Shown here in pieces: positions 21,781-43,250 of a DNA stretch of 64,000 nucleotides (positions are counted from its first letter, which is position 1; each line of letters starts with the position of its first letter). Position numbers and translations under genes: made by a program. This stretch comes from Candidatus Uhrbacteria bacterium (GTDB lineage Bacteria > Patescibacteriota > Patescibacteriia > UBA9934), in assembly GCA_018673485.1 (NCBI GenBank), contig JABHCP010000011.1, forward strand, positions 5,417-69,416, given 5' to 3'. The notes beneath the pieces are model-generated. The model saw only the letters and a program-made list of their open reading frames with translations, made no database searches and was not told the origin of the DNA.

Positions 21781-21818
21781 TCCCCCTTCCCAAGGGGGAC
21801 AACAGGGGGTTGCCGTTA
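21781..21818 (+). repeat. GC-rich palindromic repeat R1 (tcccccttcccaagggggacaacagggggttgccgtta); includes stop codon of DUF559 gene
   Basis: ccccc/ggggg hairpin plus GTTGCCGTTA tail; homologous copies R2-R4 nearby. Confidence 0.75.
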
Positions 21819-22166
21819 CTCTAAATAACTTCTGATTTCACTTAACACATTCTCTAAATCGAAATAAATGTCCTGATTTGTGAATCGAATCACTTTAATT
21901 GAATTCTTATTAAAATATTGGGTTCTTATATCATCCAAGTTCTGTGCGCTTTGTTCAAAGTGTGAATCTCCATCGATCTCCACAATTAATTTCTTTGCAG
22001 GACAATAGAAGTCTACAATATATCGACCGATGCCATGCTGTCTGCGAAATCGATATCCGAGCTTAGATGACTTTAGGTGATTCCAGAGTTGGCGTTCTGC
22101 GATCGTTGAGTCTTGCCGGAGCTTTTTTCGAAGATCTTTCTGATCTCTTCTGTTAAAAACTTTCAT
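21816..22166 (-). CDS. DUF559 endonuclease-domain protein (Vsr/PD-(D/E)xK-like)
   Basis: YIVDFYCPAKKLIVEIDGDSH motif; gene bracketed by inverted copies of repeat R. Confidence 0.7.
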   Translation of the reverse strand: MKVFNRRDQKDLRKKLRQDSTIAERQLWNHLKSSKLGYRFRRQHGIGRYIVDFYCPAKKLIVEIDGDSHFEQSAQNLDDIRTQYFNKNSIKVIRFTNQDIYFDLENVLSEIRSYLE

Positions 22167-23349: not shown

Positions 23350-23424
23350 ATCCGGGGTAGCTCAGCGGCAGAGCAGCTGACTGTTAATCAGCGGGTCGTG
23401 GGTTCGAACCCCACCCCCGGAGCC
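23350..23424 (+). tRNA. tRNA-Asn (anticodon GTT), CCA encoded
   Basis: acceptor tccgggg/ccccgga, anticodon loop ctGTTaa, T-loop ttcgaac. Confidence 0.85.
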
Positions 23425-24961
23425 AAGTGGAACGATCAGTAGAAGTGCTGATCGTTTTACTTTTGAGTGATGCTAAATCTAGCACGTAATTAAAAGGTTT
23501 TCTTAACTCAAAGACCAGTTCTCGATCCTTCATTTTCGGGTTCTGAACAAGGAAATTTATGAATTGCTGTTTTTCGTGCAATTCAGAACCGTCAAAGATT
23601 TCCTTAGCTCTGCGTGCAACAGAAAGTACTGTACCTACAGTTGTTTTATAGTCGTAGTCTGCTTTTGAGTGTTCTTCTAGTTCAATTCCGAGTTGCTGTA
23701 TGCGGTCATTGAGCTGCTGCAACTTTTTGTCATAGTCTTGCTTAGTAATACTCGGTTCTGGCTTTGTGATCTCATCTAAATAGAAGTCCAGTAACGCATC
23801 TTTTCTTTGCGTTAGCATATTGTGATCTTTTTGGATGCGTGCAACTTGTGCCTTGTGAAAACGTACTTCAGCCTCAGAGGTCTTTCTAAGCTCTTCTACG
23901 AGCTTCTGTTGGGTCTTTTCGGTTATTGTACCGAATCGATCGAGTAATTCATTTATCGGCTGTAGAAGAACTTCCTCATTCACGTATTGTCGTTTACAGT
24001 TACCCTTGGAATTGGTACAGCTATAGTAATTCCGTTTCCAGCCATTTTTTTTACGTTTTTCTTCTGGCGATATAGCACAGCCACAATCAGCACAGGTGAG
24101 TAGACCTGCAAAGATAAAATCCTTCGTTGGTTGCTTGCTACGAGTTTTTCTACGCTTATTACTCACATCCTTACATTTATCAAAGAGTTTTCTGTCAATG
24201 AGTCGAGAATATGGATGTGGGTGTCTTGAATCATACTTCTTAGAATAAAAAATTCCGTAATAATATGACTCGTTTAATATTCTGTGGATTGTGCTAGGTG
24301 AAAGAGGGTTTCCTTTTCTGCTTCTCAGTCCTAGATTCTCAACCTCAGCAGCGATAGATTTTAGTGAATGTAGACCCGTAGCGTACATTTCAAAGATTTT
24401 GATAATTAGGTGCGCACGTTTTGGATCAGGAATAATAGTTTTGTTACCAGATAAATCCTCTGTATTCAAATACCCAATAGGGCAATAGCCCATTGTTTCA
24501 CCTTTACGACGCTTTGTTTCAAATGCTCGCTTTACATTGTCCGAAATAACGTTCGAATAATAACCTGCCATTACGAGATTCATTTCGAAATGCGTTTTCT
24601 GACCAGCAGATAGATCTGAGTTAATAACTTGTCCATCAGAAACAAAATGAAGTTCAATCTTTCCAGCTTTAGCCTGTTCATAGAGTTCAGCAACTCTACG
24701 ATCAAAGATGTTTCTAGAAAAACGATCAACTTTGTCAAAACAGACGGCAATTTTTTCGTCCGTCTGTTTCAAATAGTCCAGTATCTTGTCAAATTCATCT
24801 CGTTTTGTTTTGTAGGCACTTTCGTCGAAACTGAATGTTTCTGCGACTTCAAATTGCTTTCTTTCGCAATAATCTTCGATGCGCTTAATCTGTGCTGGGA
24901 GTGAATTGCCAGCATCTTTTTGTTCTTCGGTAGATACCCGTGCGAGGATTACTGCTTTCAT
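23384..24961 (-). CDS. large serine recombinase (phage-integrase type)
   Basis: N-terminal resolvase catalytic domain AVILARVSTEEQ, recombinase domain, zinc ribbon CADCGCA, coiled-coil; C-terminal 14 codons overlap tRNA-Asn. Confidence 0.85.
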   Translation of the reverse strand: MKAVILARVSTEEQKDAGNSLPAQIKRIEDYCERKQFEVAETFSFDESAYKTKRDEFDKILDYLKQTDEKIAVCFDKVDRFSRNIFDRRVAELYEQAKAGKIELHFVSDGQVINSDLSAGQKTHFEMNLVMAGYYSNVISDNVKRAFETKRRKGETMGYCPIGYLNTEDLSGNKTIIPDPKRAHLIIKIFEMYATGLHSLKSIAAEVENLGLRSRKGNPLSPSTIHRILNESYYYGIFYSKKYDSRHPHPYSRLIDRKLFDKCKDVSNKRRKTRSKQPTKDFIFAGLLTCADCGCAISPEEKRKKNGWKRNYYSCTNSKGNCKRQYVNEEVLLQPINELLDRFGTITEKTQQKLVEELRKTSEAEVRFHKAQVARIQKDHNMLTQRKDALLDFYLDEITKPEPSITKQDYDKKLQQLNDRIQQLGIELEEHSKADYDYKTTVGTVLSVARRAKEIFDGSELHEKQQFINFLVQNPKMKDRELVFELRKPFNYVLDLASLKSKTISTSTDRSTWLRGWGSNPRPAD

Positions 24962-26115
24962 AATTTCAAAAGGTTTTCAAGGAAGTCATTGCCGTTATTC
25001 AAATCAATAGCATTGTTTGGTTTCTTGATAAGTTTTCGTATTGTTTCTCCTTTGAATTGCGTAACGCCACGAGAATTTCTGCCCGCCCAATGTTTTAATA
25101 CGATTGTATTTTTTAGAAGGTCTTTTTGGAAAATTGATACAAGTACCTGATTAGCGATCCCGTCTGGCTCAATGCCTATAAAGTAGAAAAGGAAGACACT
25201 TTGTTCTTTAGAAAGAAATTCAAGTAATTTATCGATATTGTAGGCCTTTGGATTTGAATTTAGAACAAGAACCTTTGTTTTAATGTCTGTACACGTCTTA
25301 AAGTCATCAAAATTTCGCAAATAATCACCAAGTTGGTTGTTGGTGGAAAATTTCTTTACCTTAGTACTTTGATCTTTAATAGCTTTTACTATTTCCTGCT
25401 TTACGTTATCGTCGTTGCCCGCTATTAGATATTCAATAAGTCGCCCTCTGAGATTCACGTTCTCAATGAAGCTAGCTAGGAGGATTTCATTTCTGTATTT
25501 ATTACATCGCTCGTCAAGATCTTTTTTGAGAGTCAAGTAATCATTAGAATGTGAAAAATCGATCGATCGTTCTACTGCATTTGTAATATTACTTAATTCT
25601 TCTGAATCAGGCTGAAACTTCCTTCCACTTGCAACGATATCATTGGTAGCCGAAACCAGCCTTGCCAGATTTCCTTCAAAGCCAATCTCTTTATGGATTG
25701 CAAATAGCTCATCAAAATTGCTTGGCTCATTCGAGATTCCATTAAATGTCTTTTCAATATCAGAACCATTAAAGCTACCCCTGATATTATCGATTCTCAG
25801 CTCTTGAGAACTGTGACTAATTTTTTTCAGAAATGTAGAATTTGCCAGCATTAGGTAGTTTTTTTCAGGGGTAGCAAGGCAGACTATAAAAGGAAGTTCA
25901 TCGAATTTATGAAGGTTAGATAGAGATAGAACCGTGTTTGAAAAACTTTTACTTTTAGATGAACTGAACCTGATTGCAAATTCATCATTGTAATATACAG
26001 ACCTGTCTTTTGTTAGTGAAAACCTTTCCGAAACAAGCTTAGCTAGGCTAGATTTATTCATCTTGCCTGCACTGCCGTTTATTACCTCTAATAGGTCTTT
26101 TATAAAATTCATCAT
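24958..26115 (-). CDS. putative Type II restriction endonuclease (by operon context)
   Basis: 385-aa ORF immediately downstream of and overlapping the methyltransferase gene; no recognised motif. Confidence 0.35.
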   Translation of the reverse strand: MMNFIKDLLEVINGSAGKMNKSSLAKLVSERFSLTKDRSVYYNDEFAIRFSSSKSKSFSNTVLSLSNLHKFDELPFIVCLATPEKNYLMLANSTFLKKISHSSQELRIDNIRGSFNGSDIEKTFNGISNEPSNFDELFAIHKEIGFEGNLARLVSATNDIVASGRKFQPDSEELSNITNAVERSIDFSHSNDYLTLKKDLDERCNKYRNEILLASFIENVNLRGRLIEYLIAGNDDNVKQEIVKAIKDQSTKVKKFSTNNQLGDYLRNFDDFKTCTDIKTKVLVLNSNPKAYNIDKLLEFLSKEQSVFLFYFIGIEPDGIANQVLVSIFQKDLLKNTIVLKHWAGRNSRGVTQFKGETIRKLIKKPNNAIDLNNGNDFLENLLKL

Positions 26116-26117
26116 AT

Positions 26118-27056
26118 TTATTTCTGATCAGACAAGGAATTGCGTTCCCAAAACACACCGTCTTTATATCCTTGAATATCTGGTGATTCATCGGCCATGG
26201 TCAACCTTTTTTCAGCCAAGCAACAATATTCCTCGTTTAATTCAATTCCTATATATTTTCTACCAAGCTTTTTGGCAACAACGGCAGTTGTGCCTGATCC
26301 GATAAATGGATCTAAAACTAAATCATTTTCATTGGTTGAAGCTAATATGGTTTTAGCGACAAGCTTTTCTGGTTTTTGAGTTGGGTGATCGGTATTTTCT
26401 GGCATTGACCAAAAGGGGATCGTTATATCCGTCCATAAGTTGGAAGGGTGTGTGAGTCTGAATTTCTGACCTGCTTCGTGTTGCCAATCTTTCGCTTCTC
26501 CATTGACACGATAAGGTGCAATGACTTTTCTTTTAAGTTTCACAGCATCAACATTGAAAATATAGTCACTAGATAATGTTGCAAACCAGACATCTTCAGA
26601 ACAATTTTTCCAGTTTGATTTAGCTCCTCTACCTTTTTCACGTTCCCAAGTTATTCGGTTCTGCACGATTACATGCCTCTTCAGTACATTAAAAATCGCT
26701 TGAGACGTTTTCCAATCACAACAAACATAAATGGAGGCTGTCGTCTTTAATTTTGGTAAAAGTAGAAGAAACCAATTTTCAAAGATACTTTCATATTTTG
26801 ACTGTTTTGTTTGTTTGAACGTGTTGTTACCATAGTCCTTTGTGAGGTTGTATGGCGGATCGAGAAACAGGAGATCGACAGAATTATCCTCAACCAATCC
26901 AATCCCATCTTCCATGCTAAGATTGATAATCTTATTGAGTGGACTAGTATTCTTGCTGGATTTTGAGAGTAAATGTTTTTTTAGATCGCTTATTTCTTCT
27001 TCAGCAACGAATGTAGTCCGATTATTTTTTGCCCGTTTTTTTTCGTAATTTTTCAT
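26118..27056 (-). CDS. beta-class DNA methyltransferase (N6-adenine or N4-cytosine)
   Basis: motif IV DPPY (LLFLDPPYNL) N-terminal to motif I (DPFIGSGTT) = beta permutation. Confidence 0.8.
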   Translation of the reverse strand: MKNYEKKRAKNNRTTFVAEEEISDLKKHLLSKSSKNTSPLNKIINLSMEDGIGLVEDNSVDLLFLDPPYNLTKDYGNNTFKQTKQSKYESIFENWFLLLLPKLKTTASIYVCCDWKTSQAIFNVLKRHVIVQNRITWEREKGRGAKSNWKNCSEDVWFATLSSDYIFNVDAVKLKRKVIAPYRVNGEAKDWQHEAGQKFRLTHPSNLWTDITIPFWSMPENTDHPTQKPEKLVAKTILASTNENDLVLDPFIGSGTTAVVAKKLGRKYIGIELNEEYCCLAEKRLTMADESPDIQGYKDGVFWERNSLSDQK

Positions 27057-27060
27057 AATG

Positions 27061-27240
27061 TTACTTTTTTGAATCCTCTAAAAATTTACTAAAATCCTTC
27101 TTCATAATTCTGTATTCTTTACCAATCTTATAAGCATTTAGTCTCCTTGATTTTATGTATCGGTAGATTGTCATGATATTAACCTGCAATAGCTCTGCAA
27201 GATCTTCGGCTTTATAGAACTCTTTTTCTTTCTTGGCCAT
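27061..27240 (-). CDS. excisionase-family helix-turn-helix DNA-binding protein (59 aa; not in ORF track)
   Basis: MAKKEKEFYKAEDLAELLQVNIMTIYRYIKSRRLNAYKIGKEYRIMKKDFSKFL matches excisionase/MerR-type HTH pattern; sits 5 nt upstream of methyltransferase. Confidence 0.55.
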   Translation of the reverse strand: MAKKEKEFYKAEDLAELLQVNIMTIYRYIKSRRLNAYKIGKEYRIMKKDFSKFLEDSKK

Positions 27241-27256
27241 ACTCTAATATTATACT

Positions 27257-27520
27257 TTACTTTTCTTTACAGAGCCAGTTATCTAAAACCCCTTTGCCAT
27301 TCTTAAAATCTTCGTCAATGTCATCCCATTGACCGTCCGAGTTGTCGATAGCATCTTTTCCAGCGTGGTACATCATGTCCATGACCGCTGAATCGACCTT
27401 CTCATTTTCTATCAAGGCCATTTTCATTCTATTTAGTTCAAGGGGACTTAGACGTCTGTCTAGATTAGCCTCAAGAAAATCCTGAGCATAGTCCTCCCAT
27501 AGATAAAATAAGCAATCCAT
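27257..27520 (-). CDS. hypothetical acidic protein
   Basis: ORF only. Confidence 0.4.
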   Translation of the reverse strand: MDCLFYLWEDYAQDFLEANLDRRLSPLELNRMKMALIENEKVDSAVMDMMYHAGKDAIDNSDGQWDDIDEDFKNGKGVLDNWLCKEK

Positions 27521-27523
27521 ATA

Positions 27524-28642
27524 TTATTTGTTAATTCTTAATGGTTTATAGTTATTTATTTGATACTCTAAGTCTTTTACCCAATTGCGCAATCTGCCAG
27601 CTGACACAATCTCGCTTATTGATCTATATTCACAAATAAGCCTACTCCAAGTTCGAGTGTCAGCTTTTTTACATATAACCTCTCTCAGTTCCCGTAATCC
27701 GTTGCTTGATTGAGCCATGAGGATTATGCCAGTTAGAAAGATTAGCTGCTTTGGCTTTGTGCTTGGCTTATTGGCGGAGATTCGTTTTAGAAGTTCAATT
27801 GGACTTAATTCAAGCATGAATGAAGCCAAATTTTTTGATTTAACAATATTATTCCAATAGGTCATTAAGACTTCATTGCTAATTTTTGAGCTGAATATAT
27901 CCTTAAAGCATGGGTTCTGCGTAAGTTTAAGTTGCCTAAATACTGAATTCATTTTCTGCTTCTTAGATAGCCTGACCTCCATTCGCAGTACCTCTCTAGC
28001 ATCATTCCTGTTTTTCAGCTCATCAAATAGACTTGTTTGATAGGCTGTTCGATCACGGTCGATTGCTCGTTTTTTACCTTTATTCAAGTCAGCTATTTTG
28101 TCGTAAAAAACTAGTTCATGTGAAGATGTGTGGCAGCAAAGACTTTGACCATCATTGATATATCTAGCTCTTGCGAAATCAAAGCTCTTTCTTAAATCGA
28201 TCCGTCCTATTTGTGAAAGTATGTTCGTTGAAGTTTGCCCTCCCGACAGCATGATATTTCGGCTGTAATGCACAGATGTCACAGGGGCTTCAATTAAGTA
28301 CTTTTTGAATATGGTGACTCCCATACGTCGTAGCCTGTCTTGCAAAGTATCAATGACTTGATCAAAATCCTTATCTGCAAGTTCGTCAAGATTATTTAAG
28401 AAAAGTAGCTTTGGTGCAGAGAATTCAATTTTAATTTGCTGTTCAGGTTGGTATTTTCTGCTATATGCAGTAATTCTAGGGAAGTAAAGTCCAGTATCCT
28501 TTTCGGATTTAGAAGGGTTTCTTACATGTTTCGTGTAATGCTCAGTCCGTGAATATAAATTCCAATTGGGAATCATATTATTGTTTTCATCCATAAGAAT
28601 GATGTTTCGCTCAGGAATGCTCAGACATACGGTATCAATCAT
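27524..28642 (-). CDS. putative rolling-circle replication initiator (Rep_trans-like)
   Basis: HELVFYDK motif resembling the catalytic-Tyr YDK block of Rep_trans family; context in mobile element. Confidence 0.35.
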   Translation of the reverse strand: MIDTVCLSIPERNIILMDENNNMIPNWNLYSRTEHYTKHVRNPSKSEKDTGLYFPRITAYSRKYQPEQQIKIEFSAPKLLFLNNLDELADKDFDQVIDTLQDRLRRMGVTIFKKYLIEAPVTSVHYSRNIMLSGGQTSTNILSQIGRIDLRKSFDFARARYINDGQSLCCHTSSHELVFYDKIADLNKGKKRAIDRDRTAYQTSLFDELKNRNDAREVLRMEVRLSKKQKMNSVFRQLKLTQNPCFKDIFSSKISNEVLMTYWNNIVKSKNLASFMLELSPIELLKRISANKPSTKPKQLIFLTGIILMAQSSNGLRELREVICKKADTRTWSRLICEYRSISEIVSAGRLRNWVKDLEYQINNYKPLRINK

Positions 28643-28842
28643 AAGATTCAGGGTTAATTCTCTTGTCTACGGATATCAAGAGATCGAAGAAGCTAACTAA
28701 AGACTCAAAATCAGGTGCTTCTGATTCATCTTCAATATCTTTAGGTTGTTCTTCTTGTTGATTTAACATAAAAGCCAAGAGCTTTTGCTCCCAGCTTAAA
28801 TGAACGGCTATTTATAAATGTTTGTCTTAATTTATAAACGAT

Positions 28843-29997
28843 TTATAAATCTGGATTTTTATATCGGGGATTGATTCTAAATTTCATAGTTGACCCTTCG
28901 ATGAAATCATCAATTCCTGTAATTCGGTCAACCTCATCATTTATTTTACTCTTTGCGTAATATACTTTATTTTTTGAAGCACGTTGTCGATCATCCTTGG
29001 TGAGACCCCAATCTTCTAAGATTTCTCCACGTTCCATCCATTCATCGTCCTCAGCTTTCATTAAAGATTCCATTAGCCTAGCTGCATCGGTCTTTTTATT
29101 TCCTTTTTGCAGCAAGATCTCCTCATCTGCGAAAGTAATCCGACCCGAATCCTCATCGTAGCATTCAACAACTTGAGAGGGATTATCTTTACGATAGTTG
29201 GAGTCAAGCTCATAAATAAATATATCATTTAATACGAGATTGATTTTGATTCTGCGAATGTCGTCTTTTCTCGCATACTCTTTTTCTGGCCAAAAATCTT
29301 GCACTCCCAAATAGCCCATTTTCTCTAAAGCAAAACAGATCTGTAGCAGTGAAAAGTCGGGCAATGTTTTTGGATTACCGTAGTTGTCAATTTCATCTGA
29401 GACTATAAAGTTATATCCGTAGGTAGTTAGCATTTTTTCCTTCTCGATCTTACGCATTAAAACAAATTTCTGCATCTCAAAAGCGTAAAAATTCTTTCTA
29501 TCAACTAAAAGCCTATCCTCTACAAAGTCCTCCAAGTATTCATCAATTTTCTTGCCTAGTTTAGCTAGAGCCTCCTTGTCTATATTTTTCACTTCAAAAA
29601 CAGCTTTTTTGTAAACTTCCACCCAGACCCAAGAAAGCTGACTGACACGATCTATCGATATAGGCTTTGATTGCTTGATTAGCTCTAAGGTTTTATCAAT
29701 TTCTTTACGTTGTTTATTATTCTTCTTTGCCAATTCATCCGCATCTAATCTTGATTCTATATCAGCAACCTTTCTCACAGTTACTTTCAAATTGAGGCTA
29801 CGGCAAATATTTTCAATATCGCAATAAACGGTTCCTGGATCCTCACCATAATATCGTAAATCCCATAGGGTAAATCCATGCTTCGTTTTGGGGTACTCGC
29901 TCTCACTTTCTTTCTTTTCACTACAAAAATCATAAAGGCACCTAAACCTAAAGAACCTTTCGTCTGTTAGAAATTTTTTGCTATATTCAAAGCTCAT
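28843..29997 (-). CDS. hypothetical protein
   Basis: 384-aa ORF, divergent from nuclease gene with shared operator. Confidence 0.5.
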   Translation of the reverse strand: MSFEYSKKFLTDERFFRFRCLYDFCSEKKESESEYPKTKHGFTLWDLRYYGEDPGTVYCDIENICRSLNLKVTVRKVADIESRLDADELAKKNNKQRKEIDKTLELIKQSKPISIDRVSQLSWVWVEVYKKAVFEVKNIDKEALAKLGKKIDEYLEDFVEDRLLVDRKNFYAFEMQKFVLMRKIEKEKMLTTYGYNFIVSDEIDNYGNPKTLPDFSLLQICFALEKMGYLGVQDFWPEKEYARKDDIRRIKINLVLNDIFIYELDSNYRKDNPSQVVECYDEDSGRITFADEEILLQKGNKKTDAARLMESLMKAEDDEWMERGEILEDWGLTKDDRQRASKNKVYYAKSKINDEVDRITGIDDFIEGSTMKFRINPRYKNPDL

Positions 29998-29999
29998 GG

Positions 30000-30039
30000 C
30001 TATACTTTACTCCATGCAGTAAACAATAGTAAAGTATAG
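30000..30039. promoter_or_regulatory. operator-like inverted repeat ctatactttact-N16-agtaaagtatag in 48-bp divergent intergenic region
   Basis: 12-bp perfect arms; third half-site tatactttact at 27251-27261. Confidence 0.55.
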
Positions 30040-30045
30040 ATCAAT

Positions 30046-31530
30046 ATGCACATCACAAAAACTGACTATCTTGAATATACCTATTGCAAAAAGAATCTCT
30101 GGCTTAAAAAGTATAAACCAGAGCTTTTTGATGGAGTTGAGCTATCCGAGTTTGAGAAGAAGATTATAAAAGAAGGTAATGATGCGGATGAAGCGGCTCG
30201 GAATTTGTTTCCTGATGGTGAATTAGTAGAAATAGTAGGAGTAAATGGCATTCCAATAACAAAAGTATTTCTAGCTAGGAATACATCAACTATCTTTCAA
30301 GGAGCTTTTGAGCATGATGAATTCTTCATTCAAGCTGATGTATTGAAATATAACGATGTTTTGAAAGGTTGGGAGTTGTATGAGGTTAAGGCGACTAATG
30401 ACGTCAAAAGAACTATTCCGCATCATCATGTAAACGACTTGGCTTTTCAGAAGACTGTTATTGAAAATAACGGCGTAGAAATCGTGAAGGCTGGAGTCAT
30501 ACACCTTAATGGCGAGTATAGAAAGCTAAAGAAAGTGAATTACGATGAGCTATTTATTATTGCAGATTTAACAGATGAGGTGCTTGAGGCTCAAGATGAG
30601 GTTAAGCAACAAATGGCTGACCTGAAAACCTATTTGCACATGCCAGAGGAGAAGGGTTGTGAATGCTTGTACAGAGGAAATAATGCTCAATGTACGACTT
30701 TTGAATATTCAAATCCAGACGTGCCAGAGTATTCAGTCCATAATATAAATAGAATTGGTGGAAGTAAAAAGCTGTTTTACGACTGGATTGATCGGGGGAT
30801 ATACCATATTGCAGATATAGATAATCCTGAGAAGCTCACAGGCGCTAAAAAAGCGCAGTATAACGCTTACATGGCTGGAAAGCCGACAGTTGACCATGGA
30901 GCGATAAAAGAAGCGTTAGACGGGCTTACATTCCCTTTGCAGTTCTTTGACTATGAGGGATACTCAAGTGCCATTCCTAGATTTAGAGGCTTTGGTGCAT
31001 ATGAGCAAGTTCCTTTTCAATACTCACTCCATATTTTGCATGAAGACGGTAAGTTGGAGCATAAAGAATACCTAATTACCGATCCGCAAGACGATCTGAC
31101 TCTGCCTTTGATTGAGCAGATGAAAAAAGACTTTGATGAAAATGGCTCGGTAATTTCATGGTACAAGTCTTACGAGTCTCAACGCAATAATAAACTTGCT
31201 GAGCTTCATCCTAATCATGCTGATTTTCTTGAAGCGATGAACGACAGGATGTTTGACTTGATGACGATATTCTCAAAAAATATGTACGTCGACGCTGCAT
31301 TTAAGGGTAGCGCTAGTATTAAGAATGTTTTACCAGTGCTGGTACCTGAGTTGTCTTATAACGCTCTGAATGTACAAAAAGGTGATCAGGCCGTTGAGCG
31401 TTGGGAGAAGATGATCGACTCGAATACACCTAAGGAAGAAAAAGAGCAAATCGCCAAAGATTTGCTCGAATATTGTAAGCTAGACACGATGGCCATGGTT
31501 GAAATTTATAGGTTTTTACTGAGACTGTGA
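30046..31530 (+). CDS. Cas4/RecB-like PD-(D/E)xK nuclease fused to RNase H-like/DEDD-like domain (DUF2779-like)
   Basis: N-terminus TDYLEYTYCKKNLWLKKY resembles Cas4 start; Cys cluster CECLYRGNNAQC; C-terminal FFDYEGYS exonuclease-like motif. Confidence 0.45.
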   Translation: MHITKTDYLEYTYCKKNLWLKKYKPELFDGVELSEFEKKIIKEGNDADEAARNLFPDGELVEIVGVNGIPITKVFLARNTSTIFQGAFEHDEFFIQADVLKYNDVLKGWELYEVKATNDVKRTIPHHHVNDLAFQKTVIENNGVEIVKAGVIHLNGEYRKLKKVNYDELFIIADLTDEVLEAQDEVKQQMADLKTYLHMPEEKGCECLYRGNNAQCTTFEYSNPDVPEYSVHNINRIGGSKKLFYDWIDRGIYHIADIDNPEKLTGAKKAQYNAYMAGKPTVDHGAIKEALDGLTFPLQFFDYEGYSSAIPRFRGFGAYEQVPFQYSLHILHEDGKLEHKEYLITDPQDDLTLPLIEQMKKDFDENGSVISWYKSYESQRNNKLAELHPNHADFLEAMNDRMFDLMTIFSKNMYVDAAFKGSASIKNVLPVLVPELSYNALNVQKGDQAVERWEKMIDSNTPKEEKEQIAKDLLEYCKLDTMAMVEIYRFLLRL

Positions 31531-31594
31531 TGTGTAAAAAATACGTCAGGCCGCTAATTCTCCCAGTATATAAATATTAATAAAAGTATTTACT

Positions 31595-31828
31595 ATGATA
31601 AAAAAGAATCCATTTAAGGCCTATCTTGAGGCCAATAATCTAACGGCATACAAGGTTACCAAGGTAGTTCCATCGGAGTTTTGCGCTACCATCTATCGAC
31701 TAGCCACTCTTAAGTACCCCAGTGAATTGTCCCGCAAAAAAATAGAAGTGATCGCAATGCTTAAATGTAAAACGGGGGTCGATATGTTTGAGTGGTATGT
31801 AGAGTATCTTAAAGATCAGGAAAAATAA
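31595..31828 (+). CDS. hypothetical small protein
   Basis: ORF only. Confidence 0.35.
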   Translation: MIKKNPFKAYLEANNLTAYKVTKVVPSEFCATIYRLATLKYPSELSRKKIEVIAMLKCKTGVDMFEWYVEYLKDQEK

Positions 31829-31855
31829 GTTTATCTAGAATATCAATTCTTAATT

Positions 31856-32134
31856 TTAAAACATCACTACTTTATATTCATCTGTAATTAATCGGCCACC
31901 TTCGCAGCTATAACAGGGCAGGTCATATTCCGTTGACATATATTCACCACCACAAAATTTGCAAACATCAGCCTCTCCTTTTTCAATTTTGGATTTTTTA
32001 TAACAATCTAGGCAATATTTTTGCTCCATCGCTTTTCCATGTACTTCCACTAGCATAGTTTCCCGTTCACTCCTTTGTGAAAGTGTTAGTTGCGATTTGC
32101 ATTTATTGCATTTATATATTTGTGTACTTGCCAT
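31856..32134 (-). CDS. Cys-rich zinc-ribbon protein
   Basis: CNKC...CLDC...CKFC...CYSC pairs. Confidence 0.45.
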   Translation of the reverse strand: MASTQIYKCNKCKSQLTLSQRSERETMLVEVHGKAMEQKYCLDCYKKSKIEKGEADVCKFCGGEYMSTEYDLPCYSCEGGRLITDEYKVVMF

Positions 32135-32210
32135 ATAGTTTATAGTCCCGCATTTTTAATTATAAATCAAACAAACCTACAGAATACCGGCTCTAATTCT
32201 TGCCAGTTAA

Positions 32211-32262
32211 CAGTTCTGAACCCGTTCAGTATTCGGAGCCAGTGGGACTCGAACTAGTAATG
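32211..32262 (+). promoter_or_regulatory. upstream module U1: palindrome CTGAACCCGTTCAG + TATTCGGAGCCA + hairpin/T-run, precedes gene 32306
   Basis: shared with modules at 32941, 34345, 35475. Confidence 0.55.
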
Positions 32263-32305
32263 GTTCGAGTTTTGCTTTATAGTTAGAAAAGAATTTAGAT
32301 CTGAA

Positions 32306-32887
32306 ATGAATTTTATGAAAATACTCGACCATTTATCAAGTAATTGGACCAGACTTTCTACCGCAAAGAAAATGCTGGTTATTTTCTTGTTTGTGCTATT
32401 TTTTCTAAATTCTAATATTACAGCAATAAATCGTGGCCCATGCGTTTCATCACCTTGTGGCGGTGAAAGTTTTAGTTTTTCAGATTCAATGGTCGATATA
32501 GGTAGTAATCCGAGTTATTACATTCACACCGAATCAAACCCAATTCTTGCCCCTACTTCGTTGTTGTTATTATTAACCCCCTATGAAAAAGAGGTTGGAT
32601 TTAGTTTTCTGCAATTTCTTGCTATCGGGTTTGACAACAATCCAGATCATGAAATCGATAAAGCAGATGATGAGAACCGGGCAAGAGTAGCTTACATATT
32701 AGTTAAGGCAATTATCTTACTAAGTTTTCCATTTTGGCTGCTCGTTTCATTGTTGATTGTTAAGAAATGGTATTTCATCGTTCCTGCAATACTAGTTCTA
32801 TTTATAATTTCGTTTTTATCATTCTTCAATTTGTTTGTAATTTCTGATATGGGGGTAACAACAGCAACGTGGAACTGGCTATTTTGA
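32306..32887 (+). CDS. hypothetical membrane protein
   Basis: ORF with TM helices. Confidence 0.5.
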   Translation: MNFMKILDHLSSNWTRLSTAKKMLVIFLFVLFFLNSNITAINRGPCVSSPCGGESFSFSDSMVDIGSNPSYYIHTESNPILAPTSLLLLLTPYEKEVGFSFLQFLAIGFDNNPDHEIDKADDENRARVAYILVKAIILLSFPFWLLVSLLIVKKWYFIVPAILVLFIISFLSFFNLFVISDMGVTTATWNWLF

Positions 32888-32940
32888 TTTATAGATTTGA
32901 TACTTGATTAATTGCAAGCTCAAGCTGATCCCATCTCACC

Positions 32941-32998
32941 GTCCTGAACCCGTTCAGTATTCGAGGCCAACGATAAGCCTCAGTTTTCACTGAGGTTT
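32941..32998 (+). promoter_or_regulatory. upstream module U2: CTGAACCCGTTCAG + tattcgaggcca + terminator hairpin cctcagttttcactgagg-ttttt; TATAAT 5 nt before ATG 33071
   Basis: read directly. Confidence 0.55.
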
Positions 32999-33070
32999 TT
33001 CGTTTATAAATCCACTGACCCCGGATGGGGTTCGAACTGTGATAGAATTATTTGTGAAATATAATCATTT

Positions 33071-34270
33071 ATGAAAAATTCAGAAATACAATCTTTCCAA
33101 CCTGAAAGTGGTGAATCTAAAAAAGAACTTCTTCCAGAGCAGAAACGTAGACTTTCAGAGGTTTGGGAAAGTGTTATATTGGGAACGGATAAAAAAACCG
33201 AGCAAGATGTTGAATCCTTGTCGTCAGTAGAATTAAGAGATTTGTTGCACGGGCTACTTATGCAAGAAGGTGAAGCTCTTCTTGAGGAATGGGGTATTCA
33301 AGTTGACGAGAGTTTGACTGAACGAATTCAACAAGAAGAAGATGAAGTAGAGAAGGCTCAGCTAGAACTGCATTACATTAGACAAATACACGAACAGATA
33401 GATGGGCTAGTGCAGGAATTTGACCGTTCCAAGCCTAAAAGTACAAAGTGGAATTCTTGGCCAGATAGAATGCGTGAGAAAAAAGAATTCAATTGTGTTG
33501 GTGCTATGTTATTAGGTTCTGCTTTACTTGAAAAAGCAGGAATACAGCAGTTTACGGGAAATCCCCCAAGTCATGTTGTAAATATCGTTCGTTTATCAAA
33601 TGGTGATTGGTGGTATGTTGATTTTATGAACGGAAAAAATAATGCACAGCGAATTGAACCAACTGAAAAAGAAATTGCTGGACATCGAGTATTGGATATT
33701 AATCATCCCACGATTGATTATCGTTTAATTCCAATAACACCAAAAGAGGAGGTTGGCACTTATGTAATTGGCAACTTGGCCAGTTTGCAAAAAGACGCTT
33801 ACGACGCAATCGATGATGAACAAAGTGATGATATTGAGGTTGAAGAGGCTGTTAAATATGCGAAGAAACACAATCTATTGGAAATGGATGATTTGAGTGA
33901 ATATGGTGCATATTTATTTCCTCACGATGTGCATATTAATGAAACAGCAGAAATGAAAGAGGAGTCAGTAAGGATTGAAAGAATTCATGACAGAGACGGC
34001 ATTGCAAAAGATTCTATCGCTGGATTGTCAAGAGAGAAAATCATAGAGATGATGCAAGAAATTTCTAAAAGAGAAAGTGAGATTAGAAAATTCTTTTATG
34101 AAGATGATGATTCTGTTATAGGAAAGGCTACACCAGAACTAAAAAAGTTTTTGAATACATATCGTGACGGTTTGGTAGATTTGAAGGAGTCACAACGGGA
34201 AGAATATGAAGAAGCGATAGAAAGGATGTTAAAAAAAGTTATTTTGTTTGTAGTAAAAGAGGAAGATTAA
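33071..34270 (+). CDS. transglutaminase-like cysteine protease-fold protein
   Basis: Cys-His-Asp layout NCVGAMLLGSALLEKAGI...SHVVNIV...GDWWYVDFMNG. Confidence 0.5.
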   Translation: MKNSEIQSFQPESGESKKELLPEQKRRLSEVWESVILGTDKKTEQDVESLSSVELRDLLHGLLMQEGEALLEEWGIQVDESLTERIQQEEDEVEKAQLELHYIRQIHEQIDGLVQEFDRSKPKSTKWNSWPDRMREKKEFNCVGAMLLGSALLEKAGIQQFTGNPPSHVVNIVRLSNGDWWYVDFMNGKNNAQRIEPTEKEIAGHRVLDINHPTIDYRLIPITPKEEVGTYVIGNLASLQKDAYDAIDDEQSDDIEVEEAVKYAKKHNLLEMDDLSEYGAYLFPHDVHINETAEMKEESVRIERIHDRDGIAKDSIAGLSREKIIEMMQEISKRESEIRKFFYEDDDSVIGKATPELKKFLNTYRDGLVDLKESQREEYEEAIERMLKKVILFVVKEED

Positions 34271-34344
34271 ACAGTAGTAAAAGGCATTTGCTGAAACCTA
34301 TCCATACTGATTTTAACTATTTTATAAATCCCACACAGTTCGGT

Positions 34345-34423
34345 AATCAGGTAATCCTTGGAGCCAATAATCCTGCGCTAATTTCAGTGGAGGATTTTTG
34401 ATACCCAAATGTAATTCAGAACT
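34345..34423 (+). promoter_or_regulatory. upstream module U3 (degenerate palindrome, ggagccaataatcct hairpin, T-run, TGgTAAAAT extended -10)
   Basis: near-identical to U4 over about 70 nt. Confidence 0.55.
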
Positions 34424-34444
34424 ATGGTAAAATATTTGTGTATG

Positions 34445-35434
34445 AATGAATTTTTGAAAAGTCCTGAAGCTAAAAAATCGGAGCCAGAAGTTAAGTTTTT
34501 CTTTTCAGCACATGGAACACCTGAAGACTATAGGGGTATCGAGCAGGCATTCAGTGAAGCTGATATTTACGTACTTGAATCTCATGCTTGGAAAGATGGC
34601 GATCTCGAAGAATTAAGATCAATCGCAAGTGGGGACACTGTCCCAACTCATATTAGTGAGGGACGAGAACCGAAGGATGCTATAGAATACGAGGAGGAGC
34701 TTTTATATAAGAGCGGAAAGCGGGTTGAGATCGTAGATGTGCCAATGGAGCATGAATTAGCTAATGAAGATGATGGCTCGAGCAAATACAATGATATTGT
34801 AGATCGGTTTGTAGCACAGGGGGATTTAAATAGCTCAGTAGAGAGCTTGCAGGATACGGCAAGGCAAAATGCTGACTACATAAAAAAGAAAGATGATTAT
34901 GTAGAAAAAGAACTCAAAAAACTCATAGACCAGATTGCAGACGAGTCCCCAGAGGCAAAGATACTTGTACAAATGGGTTCTTCACATTCGGGAATCTCGC
35001 ATAAATTAAGAAAAGAGGGCGTGGCTAAGCGAGTAATGAATGAAGTTCGTTATGATTTCAACGATGAGCTTTTACGAACTTTTCGCTTCAATAAGGAGCC
35101 GAATACGGAGTTAATTTCAAGATCATTAATTGAACAGACAATAAAACGATTCTTTTTTGATGAAATGATAAAGGTTCCATATTTATTAAGAAATAAATTT
35201 TTCAGAGATACTCTTTCGGACATTTCCACTGAACAAGTCCAACAAATGGGACAGATTATGGAGTCTAGATACTTTGACGAAATGATTATGGGAGGCGGTG
35301 ATGATACGCCCGAAACAAATAGAGTGATATTCGTCTATGCATGGGAGGCTGTGATAGGGTCTGATATAAATCTTCTAATATCCCAACTTGAAATGCAGGT
35401 CTCTAACGATGACAAGAAGGAAGATGATGTTTAG
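34445..35434 (+). CDS. hypothetical acidic protein (ORF track start 34424 lies within the -10 element)
   Basis: ORF; leaderless arrangement. Confidence 0.45.
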   Translation, partial: NEFLKSPEAKKSEPEVKFFFSAHGTPEDYRGIEQAFSEADIYVLESHAWKDGDLEELRSIASGDTVPTHISEGREPKDAIEYEEELLYKSGKRVEIVDVPMEHELANEDDGSSKYNDIVDRFVAQGDLNSSVESLQDTARQNADYIKKKDDYVEKELKKLIDQIADESPEAKILVQMGSSHSGISHKLRKEGVAKRVMNEVRYDFNDELLRTFRFNKEPNTELISRSLIEQTIKRFFFDEMIKVPYLLRNKFFRDTLSDISTEQVQQMGQIMESRYFDEMIMGGGDDTPETNRVIFVYAWEAVIGSDINLLISQLEMQVSNDDKKEDDV

Positions 35435-35474
35435 GCGAATCGATGCATACTTTGATTAACTCTACCCCAATCAA

Positions 35475-35579
35475 CAGTCCTGAACCCGTTCAGTATTCGG
35501 AGCCAATAATCCTTCGCTAATTTCAGCGGAGGATTATTTATACCAAAATATAATTCAGAACTGGTATAATATTTCGTGT
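35475..35579 (+). promoter_or_regulatory. upstream module U4: CTGAACCCGTTCAG + tattcggagccaataatcc hairpin + T-run + TGgTATAAT extended -10, 9 nt before ATG
   Basis: read directly. Confidence 0.6.
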
Positions 35580-43170: not shown

Positions 43171-43250
43171 ATTTCAACTAATCAATATTGACAAAAACCC
43201 ATTTCACCGGTAAGTTTTCCCTGAATTCGGACTCTCACATGGAGGTGAAC

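What the first reader, a model, noticed from the sequence alone, without database searches (positions are those of the whole stretch)
23350..32140. Integrated element at tRNA-Asn: serine integrase plus Type II R-M operon, Rep_trans-like protein and a Cas4-like/DEDD nuclease
A 525-aa large serine recombinase is encoded antisense to tRNA-Asn and overlaps its 3' end by 41 nt. That layout is the hallmark of site-specific integration that reconstitutes the tRNA. Downstream lies an operon: excisionase-type HTH (59 aa, missed by the ORF track), a beta-class DNA methyltransferase (DPPY before FxGxG), and a 385-aa partner that is probably the cognate endonuclease. Further genes include a Rep_trans-like protein (HELVFYDK) and a divergent pair, a 384-aa unknown protein and a 494-aa Cas4-like plus exonuclease-like fusion. 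The latter pair could be an uncharacterised defence or anti-defence module riding on the element.
Basis: partly seen in the sequence, partly recalled or inferred. Interest (0 to 1): 0.6.

Follow-up and report, generated by a model that had tools for sequence, protein, structure and literature searches.

The report
Integrative plasmid-like element at tRNA-Asn
An 8.8-kb mobile element carrying a restriction-modification system sits in the 3' end of tRNA-Asn of a Patescibacteria genome, and its serine integrase has its attachment site inside its own gene, so integration swaps the enzyme's C-terminus for a peptide read antisense from the tRNA, a layout shared by thousands of related integrases.

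Summary
A large serine recombinase (23384-24961, minus) overlaps tRNA-Asn(GTT) by 42 nt. Upstream of it on the same strand lie a Type II REase/MTase pair, an HTH_17 protein, a gpII/Rep_trans-like initiator and a DUF2779 (Cas4-like plus DEDDy-like) nuclease.

New here:
- The right end (attR) is at 32190-32276; only GGAGCCA is shared with attL. The element is 8,816 bp.
- attP lies inside the integrase ORF. Integration replaces a conserved native tail (WLR-ILNGFRTVNW...) with antisense-tRNA sequence (WLR-GWGSNPRPAD).
- Two circular relatives (L081, L176) keep the native tail and have no tRNA. In a survey of 85 related loci, 35 integrases overlapped tRNA-Asn.
- A second integrase clade, only 26% identical, shows the same layout.
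- Motif spacing at the sites fits the published 5-bp attP/attB offset for serine integrases.
- Three further attR scars (32969, 34366, 35505) bound single-gene remnants.
- The backbone (integrase, HTH_17, initiator) is conserved; the R-M cargo varies between relatives.

The 384-aa/DUF2779 "pair" is not a co-conserved module. No empty site or excision product of this copy was found. I rate it a new variant of a known kind.

The parts
23351..23425 (+). tRNA-Asn(GTT). It is intact; its last few nucleotides and its terminator are supplied by the element.
   Evidence: ARAGORN. Acceptor and T stems pair perfectly.
23401..23446 (.). attL (B-O-P'): T-loop GTTCGAA at 23402-23408, shared core GGAGCCA at 23419-23425, and a P' arm that forms a terminator hairpin. 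Predicted crossover dinucleotide GA at 23420-23421 (inferred).
   Evidence: Alignment of attL and attR. Family-wide attL alignment. Hairpin -21.3 kcal/mol, z -7.6. Geometry compared with PMC3783163.
23384..24961 (-). Large serine recombinase (integrase), 525 aa in the integrated state. Residues 516-525 (GWGSNPRPAD) are the antisense reading of the tRNA.
   Evidence: Pfam Resolvase, Recombinase and Zn_ribbon_recom; phrog_95; tail analysis.
24958..26115 (-). Type II restriction endonuclease, 385 aa (cargo).
   Evidence: PADLOC REase_II PDLC03461, E 4.5e-142, model positions 2-383 of 384. Absent from 86 related loci.
26118..27056 (-). Beta-class N6A/N4C DNA methyltransferase, 312 aa (cargo).
   Evidence: Pfam N6_N4_Mtase 1.6e-44; PADLOC MTase_II 7.9e-61; DPPY before FxGxG.
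27061..27240 (-). 59-aa HTH_17 / excisionase-family DNA-binding protein. It is a backbone gene and the candidate recombination directionality factor or regulator (role inferred).
   Evidence: HTH_17 4.7e-12; TIGR01764 5.3e-11. Conserved in 55 of 86 related loci; where gene calls are available it lies just upstream of the integrase or of the cargo.
27257..27520 (-). 87-aa acidic backbone protein, function unknown.
   Evidence: No family hits. Homologs in 6 related loci at the same position.
27524..28642 (-). 372-aa rolling-circle-type replication initiator of the gpII / Rep_trans superfamily. Invariant H171, H175, Y180, D181 and K182 lie in HELVFYDK.
   Evidence: More than 1,000 homologs. 3 of 30 hit Phage_CRI or Rep_trans at about 1e-6. 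AF2 pLDDT 87.6. BFVD Foldseek hits E 1e-9 to 2e-6, including Inoviridae G2P.
28635..28769 (-). 44-aa ORF overlapping the initiator gene's start by 8 nt. An ORF of 41-48 aa holds this position in relatives.
   Evidence: Gene calls; translation.
28843..29997 (-). 384-aa protein of unknown function. Its C-terminal domain of about 110 aa recurs in a small family.
   Evidence: 125 representative clusters. No Pfam hits. Homologs upstream of the initiator in L081, L106 and L107.
30046..31530 (+). 494-aa DUF2779 nuclease. N-terminal Cas4-like PD-(D/E)xK part with 4 Cys (C14, C205, C207, C216); C-terminal DEDDy-like exonuclease part (FFDYE, YCKLD).
   Evidence: DUF2779 1.8e-37; Cas4 6e-5; TM0106 RecB-like 7.6e-7; motif conservation. 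77-79% identical in L082, L084 and L085.
31595..32134 (.). Two small ORFs at the right end: 77 aa (31595-31828, +) and 92 aa (31856-32134, -, CxxC-rich). Function unknown.
   Evidence: ORF list. No family hits. No homologs in related loci.
32190..32276 (.). attR (s1): P arm with GTTCTGAA at 32213-32220, which encodes the integrase's native tail ILNGFRTVNWQELEPVFCRFV on the minus strand; core GGAGCCA at 32235-32241; then a terminator hairpin.
   Evidence: (repeat family D1).
32242..32969 (.). Remnant 2: one ORF (193 aa, 32306-32887, +) ending at attR-type scar s2 (core GAGGCCA at 32963-32969).
   Evidence: Hairpin -17.8 kcal/mol.
32970..34366 (.). Remnant 3: one ORF (399 aa, 33071-34270, +) ending at the degenerate scar s2b (core 34360-34366; antisense reading WLQGLPDYRTVW). 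It also contains an inverted attL-like fragment at 33013-33040.
   Evidence: (family D2).
34367..35505 (.). Remnant 4: one ORF (336 aa, 34424-35434, +) ending at scar s3 (core 35499-35505). The terminator after s3 is probably the original tRNA trailer (inferred).
   Evidence: Hairpin -17.4 kcal/mol.

Best explanation
Region 23421-32236 is one integrated copy (8,816 bp) of a family of small plasmid-like integrative elements of Patescibacteria.

Shown or inferred, step by step:
1. Free form (shown in relatives, not for this copy). The element exists as a circle of about 9.5-10.5 kb. It encodes a gpII/Rep_trans-type initiator, so it probably replicates by a rolling-circle mechanism (inferred).
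2. attP position (shown). attP lies inside the 3' end of the element's large serine integrase gene.
3. Integration (inferred from the junctions). The integrase recombines attP with an attB made of the T-arm, the 3' acceptor strand/CCA and the trailer of tRNA-Asn. Exchange happens within the shared GGAGCCA. From site symmetry I predict the crossover at the GA of tRNA positions 70-71.
4. tRNA repair (shown). The element supplies the last nucleotides of the tRNA and a new terminator hairpin, so the tRNA stays intact.
5. C-terminal swap (shown). Integration cuts off the integrase's conserved native C-terminal peptide, which ends up encoded at attR. The prophage-state ORF instead reads antisense into the tRNA and stops in the anticodon loop.
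6. Excision (inferred). It presumably needs a directionality factor. The conserved 59-aa HTH_17 protein just upstream is the candidate.
7. Cargo. Between the backbone genes this copy carries a Type II REase/beta-class MTase pair. Relatives carry Type IIG or Type III-like systems in its place. Such cargo should protect the host and stabilise the element (inferred).
8. Older scars (shown as sequence). Three more attR-type scars downstream mark earlier integrations at the same tRNA, or small passengers.
For: Junctions in the window:
- attL and three attR-type sites share only (C)GGAGCCA.
- To its left they have either the tRNA (attL) or a conserved P arm encoding W(L/P)RILNGFRTV.W on the integrase strand (attR). 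The repeat finder recovers them independently as family D1, and a fourth site through D2.
- Each core is followed by a strong hairpin and a U-run.

Free forms:
- L081 (9,580 bp) and L176 (10,528 bp) each close on a 30-bp terminal overlap and have no tRNA.
- Both carry a full-length native-tail integrase and the initiator homolog; L176 also has the HTH_17 gene.

Generality:
- In 85 related loci, 35 integrases overlap tRNA-Asn(GTT) by 40-43 nt, 2 overlap tRNA-His, 1 tRNA-Gln and 1 tRNA-Trp. About 19 have native tails and no tRNA.
- attR scars without an integrase body lie 5.5-11 kb upstream in 8 loci.
- Tandem arrays, with an internal native-tail integrase, occur in L082, L106, L111 and L115.
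- Among the 120 best homologs of the window integrase, at least 77 end in tRNA-antisense tails and 17 in native tails.
- In a second clade only 26% identical (L001 type), the counts are 100 and 8 of 120.

Geometry:
- With the centre between tRNA positions 70 and 71, the P-arm GTTCTGAA falls at half-site bp 17-24 and the T-loop GTTCGAA at bp 13-19.
- Inner GTYC and GGAC motifs mirror each other about that centre.
- This matches the published zinc-ribbon-domain motif positions of 16-24 in attP and 11-19 in attB (PMC3783163).

Native tail is constrained as protein: Arg and Thr of FRT are invariant while their codons vary, and third codon positions vary most beyond the motif.

Backbone and cargo. 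Initiator. R-M pair.

Mobility across species: the closest relative genome (L001) is syntenic on the lgt/rpoD/dnaG side but has a different element at the same tRNA.
Against: - No empty tRNA-Asn site and no excised circle of this particular copy were found. Every contig from the same population carries the element. The one apparent alternative, L169, is an assembly chimera.
- Circularity of L081 and L176 rests on assembly-graph terminal overlaps only.
- The crossover dinucleotide, the role of HTH_17 and rolling-circle replication are inferred. No origin or nick site was identified.
- The window's own initiator does not reach any Pfam threshold, and Foldseek found no solved-structure match.
- Serine integrases are not expected to use attL as a target, so how tandem arrays and scars arise is unexplained.
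- The AF2 model gives the native tail low confidence (pLDDT 45-57), so there is no structural hint of what the tail does.
Confidence: 0.8

Rival explanations
1. It is a prophage: a small temperate phage, an inovirus-like filamentous phage or a phage satellite, rather than a plasmid-like element.
For: The integrase's best PHROG is a phage integrase family. The initiator's best structural matches are Inoviridae G2P-type proteins. Inoviruses have been reported in the Candidate Phyla Radiation and can carry serine recombinases (PMC6813254). Several small ORFs remain unassigned.
Against: None of the 10 larger ORFs (59 aa or more) matches a capsid, tail, terminase, coat or pI/Zot morphogenesis family in Pfam, PHROGs or NCBIfam. 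At 8.8 kb, 2.1 kb is R-M cargo. A scan of IMG/VR with the integrase profile found only two weak relatives, against more than 500 in metagenomes. The gene calls of the circular relatives L081 and L176 list no virion-type Pfam family.
Confidence: 0.1
2. It is a fixed, no longer mobile island. On this view the integrase/tRNA overlap is only an accidental read-through, and the integrase is inactive in this copy.
For: Every same-population contig carries the element, and no empty site or circle of this copy was seen. The prophage-state integrase lacks its conserved native tail.
Against: All backbone ORFs are intact and tightly packed. attL and attR are well preserved compared with the degenerate scars s2 and s2b. 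The same layout recurs across thousands of integrases together with free circular forms, so the overlap follows from where attP lies and is not an accident. The tail is restored on excision.
Confidence: 0.1
3. The stretch 32242-35505 is not decay debris. It is an array of small single-gene cassettes, each bounded by an attR-type site, which element integrases mobilise in trans in an integron-like way.
For: Each of the three units holds exactly one plus-strand ORF between a hairpin and a P arm plus core. The 64-85 nt right flank of s3 is duplicated at s2b at 88-91% identity, which simple decay does not predict. Similar bodiless sites occur in relatives.
Against: The three ORFs have no homologs in 86 related loci. 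Serine integrases are not known to recombine attR with attR. s2 and s2b are degenerate (GAGGCCA; WLQGLPDYRTVW). No free circle of such a cassette was seen.
Confidence: 0.15
4. The C-terminal swap has no function. The native tail is conserved only because it overlaps the DNA site that the integrase binds.
For: The most conserved tail residues (FRT) coincide with the GTTCTGAA motif placed where the zinc-ribbon domain should bind. Prophage-state tails vary in length and sequence. AF2 gives the tail low confidence.
Against: Arg and Thr are invariant as amino acids while their codons vary (AGA, CGA, CGG; Thr third base 50% identical). A subfamily keeps about 20 further residues (NWxSIKSELQFSGIL) beyond a 25-bp half-site, and there third codon positions vary most.
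Confidence: 0.45

Closest known systems
Phage-type large serine integrases (Listeria A118/LI, phiC31, Bxb1)
   Same: Same domain set: resolvase catalytic domain with an invariant Ser10 in the alignments, recombinase domain, and zinc ribbon with inserted long helices. Short att sites with no long repeat. The outer motif lies 5 bp further out in attP than in attB, as described for LI integrase (PMC3783163).
   Different: The target is a tRNA gene's T-arm, acceptor end and trailer, not a protein-coding gene. attP lies inside the integrase's own coding sequence, so the protein's C-terminus changes on integration. The carrier is a small initiator-encoding element, not a tailed phage. The 10,000-scale LSR survey I checked mentions neither tRNA targets nor Patescibacteria (PMC10083194).
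SSV-type 'suicidal' tyrosine integrases of archaeal viruses and plasmids
   Same: The recombination site lies inside the integrase ORF, so integration alters the integrase gene (PMC7253208). From my own knowledge, they also target tRNA genes.
   Different: They are tyrosine recombinases, and the gene is split into two inactive halves. Here the enzyme is a serine recombinase and only the last 21 residues (about 20-30 in relatives) are exchanged. All catalytic and DNA-binding domains remain on one ORF.
Actinomycete integrative elements such as pSAM2 and SLP1 (from my own knowledge)
   Same: Small elements that integrate at the 3' end of a tRNA gene. They carry int, an excisionase-type gene and a rolling-circle-type rep gene, and exist as both a free circle and an integrated copy.
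   Different: Those use tyrosine integrases with att identity segments of 40-110 bp, carry conjugation genes, and occur in Actinobacteria. No transfer genes were identified here.
Mycobacteriophage integration-dependent immunity (BPs/Brujita type; from my own knowledge)
   Same: attP lies inside a coding sequence, so integration changes the C-terminus, and thereby the behaviour, of the encoded protein.
   Different: There the gene affected is the repressor and the integrase is a tyrosine recombinase. Here the integrase itself is affected, and any functional consequence is untested.
phiRSM-type inoviruses (from my own knowledge)
   Same: A gpII-type initiator together with a serine recombinase that integrates at a tRNA gene.
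   Different: phiRSM uses a small resolvase-type recombinase and has filamentous-phage coat and assembly genes. None were found here.

Membership tests
Large serine recombinase (serine integrase) | N-terminal resolvase catalytic domain with the nucleophilic serine | tested here: met
   PF00239 at 1.5e-20, residues 3-155. R8, V9 and S10 are invariant across 28 homologs.
Large serine recombinase (serine integrase) | C-terminal recombinase domain plus a zinc ribbon with a coiled-coil insertion | tested here: met
   PF07508 at 2.5e-13 and PF13408 at 8.5e-9. Invariant Cys290, Cys293, Cys295, Cys315 and Cys322. Long helices at 348-434 in the AF2 model of homolog P0005.
Large serine recombinase (serine integrase) | Short attP/attB sites that share only a small core, with the outer motif shifted 5 bp between attP and attB | tested here: met
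   The shared core is GGAGCCA. The P-arm GTTCTGAA lies 5 nt further from the core than the T-loop GTTCGAA, as in PMC3783163. The centre itself is inferred.
Large serine recombinase (serine integrase) | Catalyses attP x attB recombination with a 2-bp staggered cut; reversal needs a directionality factor | not testable with these tools
   Needs biochemistry or junction reads.
Type II restriction-modification system | Separate methyltransferase with catalytic (D/S)PP(Y/F) and AdoMet FxGxG motifs | tested here: met
   N6_N4_Mtase at 1.6e-44. LFLDPPYNL and DPFIGSGTT are in the translation.
Type II restriction-modification system | Adjacent stand-alone endonuclease related to known Type II enzymes | tested here: met
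   PADLOC REase_II PDLC03461 at 4.5e-142, full length. A 2-nt gap separates it from the MTase gene. No Pfam, PDB or plasmid match.
Type II restriction-modification system | Cognate recognition sequence that is cut and methylated | not testable with these tools
   Needs methylome data or enzyme assays.
Rep_trans / Phage_CRI (gpII) rolling-circle initiators | Sequence match to the Pfam models above the gathering threshold | tested here: not met
   The window protein has no hit. Only 3 of 30 homologs hit, at about 1e-6.
Rep_trans / Phage_CRI (gpII) rolling-circle initiators | Shared fold | tested here: met
Rep_trans / Phage_CRI (gpII) rolling-circle initiators | Catalytic tyrosine and a cognate nick site or origin | tested here: inconclusive
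   Y180 is invariant within HELVFYDK. No origin or nick site was identified.
Cas4 (CRISPR-associated PD-(D/E)xK nuclease) | PD-(D/E)xK motif plus four cluster-binding cysteines | tested here: met
   QADVL...ELYEVK and C14, C205, C207, C216 are conserved in 5 homologs. PADLOC Cas4 gives only a weak match, 6e-5.
Cas4 (CRISPR-associated PD-(D/E)xK nuclease) | Association with a CRISPR-cas adaptation module | tested here: not met
   No cas genes lie in the element or in related elements. It resembles Cas4 but is not a Cas4. It is a DUF2779-family protein (PF11074, 1.8e-37).
Inovirus (filamentous phage) | pI/Zot-type morphogenesis ATPase and small coat proteins | tested here: not met
   No such hits among the element's 10 larger ORFs in Pfam, PHROGs or NCBIfam.
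Integron | IntI tyrosine integrase, attI and attC-bounded cassettes | tested here: not met
   The recombinase is a serine enzyme. The repeated sites are attR-type copies of its own attP arm.

The most novel reading that the evidence does not exclude
Integration-coupled exchange of the integrase C-terminus works as a built-in state switch. The free element makes a full-length enzyme whose conserved tail (h-h-D/N-x-F/V-R-T-x-N-W...) is needed for, or tunes, attP x attB integration, stability or autoinhibition. The integrated copy makes a tail-swapped enzyme that cannot re-integrate or is controlled differently. This would be a serine-recombinase counterpart of the archaeal 'suicidal' integrases. 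It would be coupled to recognition of the tRNA T-loop by the zinc-ribbon domain, and it is used by thousands of Patescibacteria elements.
Probability: 0.3. Interest if true: 0.8.

Novelty: new variant of a known kind. Interest (0 to 1): 0.62.

Why it matters
1. It gives base-precise ends, a free circular form and a conserved backbone for a family of mobile elements in Patescibacteria. I found no description of such an element for this group in the searched library.
2. It points to a very large natural set of serine integrases (thousands of database proteins in two deeply divergent clades) whose attP and attB can be read directly from genomes, because attP lies in the gene and attB is a tRNA end. 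That is useful raw material for recombinase engineering.
3. It explains a systematic oddity in protein databases. Most of these integrases carry C-termini such as ...WLRGWDSNPRP that are antisense tRNA, not native protein sequence. That matters for annotation, alignment and structure prediction.
4. It makes a simple question testable: does changing a serine integrase's C-terminus on integration control its activity or direction?
5. It shows that these small elements carry restriction-modification systems of several types between small-genome bacteria.

Tried and rejected
- Direct-repeat search. I searched for a repeat of the tRNA 3' region of 14 nt or more and found none. The 12-mer found (33037, inverted) is at chance level. 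The boundary was found through the displaced tail-coding sequence instead.
- Empty site. The genome-contig scan with Lgt gave L001, which is also occupied, by a different element. Exact-protein look-ups of Lgt and of the 240-aa right-flank protein returned only occupied copies. L169 looked like an alternative junction but is a chimera: it is high-GC beyond tRNA position 42, has an acceptor-stem mismatch and has 2x coverage.
- attR in L084 and L085. Not found within the 10-kb flank; those elements are probably longer.
- REase identity. A tblastn of the REase against plasmids found no match, so its specificity remains unknown.
- Native-tail integrase model. In the AF2 model the tail has low confidence, which is uninformative.
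- 384-aa protein. An exhaustive search found 125 clusters with a shared C-terminal domain but no Pfam family.
- Replication origin. The inverted-repeat scan of the element found no convincing candidate.
- Literature. Six full-text searches found no description of tRNA-targeting large serine recombinases in Patescibacteria, or of attP inside a serine integrase gene. This covers only the open-access library searched.

Full report
**1. The observation**

ARAGORN finds tRNA-Asn(GTT) at 23351-23425 on the plus strand. On the minus strand, an ORF at 23384-24961 encodes a 525-aa protein with Resolvase, Recombinase and Zn_ribbon_recom domains. Its best PHROG is an integrase family at 1.6e-71. The ORF overlaps the tRNA by 42 nt, and its stop codon lies in the anticodon loop.

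Upstream of it on the minus strand, in a tight chain with gaps of -8 to +73 nt, lie:
- a 385-aa protein that matches PADLOC's Type II REase model PDLC03461 end to end at 4.5e-142;
- a 312-aa beta-class N6_N4 methyltransferase;
- a 59-aa HTH_17/excisionase-family protein;
- an 87-aa protein;
- a 372-aa protein;
- a 44-aa ORF;
- a 384-aa protein.

A 494-aa DUF2779 protein is encoded divergently. GC is 0.369 in this block against 0.43 and 0.42 in the flanks. The host is a Magasanikbacteria-like member of the Patescibacteria. The description is therefore accurate; only the right-hand coordinate is about 100 bp short.

**2. Finding the other end**

No repeat of 14 nt or more exists. The clue came from relatives.

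In the closest genome available (L001; host proteins 67-91% identical and syntenic on the lgt/rpoD/dnaG side), a serine recombinase only 26% identical overlaps that genome's tRNA-Asn by the same 42 nt. It ends in the same peptide...SWLRGW(G/D)SNPRPxx, which is simply the antisense reading of the tRNA.

Among the 120 best homologs of the window integrase, most end in such tRNA-antisense tails after a conserved W-L-R. A minority continue instead with a different but conserved peptide, W-L-R-I-L-N-E-F-R-T-x-N-W.... If attP lies inside the integrase gene, that 'native' tail should be encoded at the far end of an integrated copy.

It is. The minus strand encodes WLRILNGFRTVNWQELEPVFCRFV at 32241, with two more copies at 32969 and 35505. 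At the DNA level each site reads, on the plus strand:
- a conserved P arm (CAGTyCTGAACCCGTTCAGTAT);
- then TCGGAGCCA, which matches the tRNA's CCGGAGCCA;
- then its own hairpin and U-run.

The repeat finder recovers the same three sites without prior assumptions, and also reveals a fourth, degenerate one at 34360-34366.

So attL is the tRNA/integrase junction and attR is at 32235-32241. The element is 8,816 bp. Integration replaces the last 21 residues of a 536-aa native integrase with GWGSNPRPAD.

**3. Tests on relatives**

Two circular relatives exist. L081 (9,580 bp) and L176 (10,528 bp) each close on a 30-bp terminal overlap and have no tRNA. Both encode a native-tail integrase whose 3' end contains P arm, GCGGAGCCA and then a P' arm (a clear hairpin in L081). 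Both carry the 372-aa homolog, and L176 also has the HTH_17 gene.

In a survey of 85 related loci:
- 35 integrases overlap tRNA-Asn(GTT) by 40-43 nt;
- 4 overlap tRNA-His, Gln or Trp;
- 14 run off their contig;
- about 19 have native tails with no tRNA nearby.

Eight integrated loci have a bodiless attR-type site 5.5-11 kb upstream. Four loci have a second, upstream integrase with a native tail, as expected for tandem copies whose internal junction is attP-like.

The same two kinds of tail occur in the L001-type clade: 100 of 120 are tRNA-type and 8 are native. The layout therefore spans integrases that share only 26% identity, and thousands of database proteins. The family is almost absent from IMG/VR.

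**4. Site geometry**

Exchange must fall within the block shared by attL and attR (GGAGCCA).
- The inner motifs GTYC (P arm) and GGAC (P' arm) mirror each other about a centre between tRNA positions 70 and 71.
- With that centre, the invariant P-arm motif GTTCTGAA occupies half-site base pairs 17-24.
- The T-loop GTTCGAA occupies base pairs 13-19.

For Listeria LI integrase, the zinc-ribbon-domain motif sits at base pairs 16-24 in attP and 11-19 in attB, a 5-bp shift (PMC3783163). The fit supports reading the tRNA T-loop as the outer recognition motif of attB, and GA (23420-23421) as the crossover. Both points are inferences.

**5. Is the native tail a protein feature or only a DNA site?**

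Across 21 distinct tails, Arg and Thr of F-R-T are invariant as amino acids while their codons vary. Beyond the motif, identity at codon positions 1, 2 and 3 is 0.46, 0.50 and 0.38. One subfamily keeps about 20 more residues, beyond any 25-bp half-site. This argues for some protein-level constraint, but the effect is modest. An AF2 model gives the tail low confidence. Whether the swap matters functionally is open.

**6. The other genes**

*372-aa protein.* It has more than 1,000 unnamed Patescibacteria homologs. Three of 30 touch Pfam Phage_CRI or Rep_trans at about 1e-6. A confident model (pLDDT 87.6) matches Inoviridae G2P-type proteins at E 1e-9 to 2e-6, though nothing in the PDB by Foldseek. 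H171, H175, Y180, D181 and K182, in HELVFYDK, are invariant. The protein is probably a rolling-circle-type initiator.

*DUF2779 protein.* It has a conserved D...E-V-K motif, four conserved cysteines, and DxE and Y-x3-D exonuclease motifs. It is 77-79% identical in close relatives, more conserved than the integrase itself. In this sub-lineage it is therefore a backbone gene and not cargo.

*384-aa protein.* It belongs to a small family defined by a C-terminal domain of about 110 aa, with no known domain. It recurs next to the initiator in L081, which has no DUF2779 gene. DUF2779 in turn recurs with unrelated neighbours. The 'pair' is not a module.

*R-M pair.* The REase is absent from all 86 related loci, and the MTase has only distant relatives there. 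Relatives carry an Eco57I-like Type IIG enzyme, or N6_N4 Mod plus ResIII helicase genes, instead. R-M systems are thus interchangeable cargo.

*Virion genes.* No capsid, tail, terminase, coat or Zot-type genes were found.

**7. The scars**

Sites s2 (32969), s2b (34366) and s3 (35505) delimit units of 728, 1,397 and 1,139 bp. Each unit holds one plus-strand ORF with no homologs in related loci. They are most simply the remains of earlier integrations at the same tRNA.

Two things are not explained by simple decay:
- 64-85 nt of the s3 right flank is duplicated at s2b;
- an inverted attL-like fragment lies at 33013-33040.

How a serine integrase would integrate repeatedly at a site that has already become an attL is also unexplained.

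**8. Limits**

I found no empty site and no excision product for this copy. Circularity of the relatives rests on assembly overlaps. The following are all inferred:
- the crossover position;
- the directionality-factor role of HTH_17;
- rolling-circle replication;
- any function of the tail swap.

**9. Verdict**

What is unusual is the integrase's arrangement. It is a large serine recombinase that targets a tRNA end, and its attP lies inside its own gene, so its C-terminus depends on whether the element is free or integrated. In the literature I could search, the nearest parallel is the archaeal SSV-type tyrosine integrases (PMC7253208). A large survey of serine recombinases mentions neither tRNA targets nor Patescibacteria.

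I rate it a new variant of a known kind. Interest is moderate to high, mainly because the layout is so widespread and leads directly to experiments.

Noticed in passing
window 33013-33040: An inverted, degraded attL-like fragment lies just after scar s2. Its reverse complement is GTTCGAACCCCATCCGGGGTCAGTGGA (T-loop, acceptor strand and start of a P' arm). By score it is no better than chance, but its position suggests a past inversion or rearrangement between sites.
   Followed up: partly
window 34360-34444 and 35499-35582: The GGAGCCA core and about 85 nt to its right (hairpin plus the region upstream of the next ORF's start) are duplicated at 88-91% identity. As a result the 336-aa ORF unit is flanked by direct repeats of the 'chromosomal' side of the site. 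Simple decay of an old element does not explain this.
   Followed up: partly
L082:1-718, L106:2043-3635, L111:3063-4703, L115:3-1460: Several relatives have a second integrase upstream of the tRNA-proximal element, and this one has a native-type tail. This indicates tandem arrays whose internal junction is attP-like. How a serine integrase integrates next to an existing attL is unclear.
   Followed up: partly
L091, L130, L133, L139: A few family members overlap tRNA-Gln, tRNA-His or tRNA-Trp by 63 nt instead of tRNA-Asn by 42 nt. These are natural switches of target within the family.
   Followed up: no
proteins P0001-P0120 and P0241-P0360: Most database entries for these integrases end in peptides such as WLRGWDSNPRPIG that are antisense tRNA. 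Many others stop right after WLRG because of a stop codon within the tRNA. Gene callers and protein clusters treat these as genuine C-termini.
   Followed up: yes
L169 (ENA ERZ508549, NODE_22325): This contig is 99.8% identical to the window from lgt up to tRNA position 57 (about 42 by direct tRNA comparison), and then switches to high-GC foreign sequence. Its tRNA has an acceptor-stem mismatch. It is a metagenome assembly chimera joined within a tRNA gene, and could be mistaken for an empty site.
   Followed up: yes
L168 and L172 (ENA ERZ27245997), window 31366-31381: In this sample the assembly breaks inside the DUF2779 gene, and the two contigs overlap by only 16 nt. This may reflect population variation at that point.
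   Followed up: no
window 21816-22166: A 116-aa DUF559 (Vsr-like endonuclease domain) protein is encoded right next to lgt on the host side of the tRNA.
   Followed up: no
window 43188-43985: A purine/uridine phosphorylase-family gene (PNP_UDP_1) lies in a 1-kb window with GC 0.558, in a genome of about 0.42. It is a candidate for recent horizontal acquisition.
   Followed up: no
L001:3065-10001: In the closest relative genome, about 7 kb of genes lie between tRNA-Asn and lgt. Several of them are most similar to window genes located elsewhere. The window has only 290 bp at this position. This is a rearrangement or insertion on the 5' side of the tRNA.
   Followed up: no
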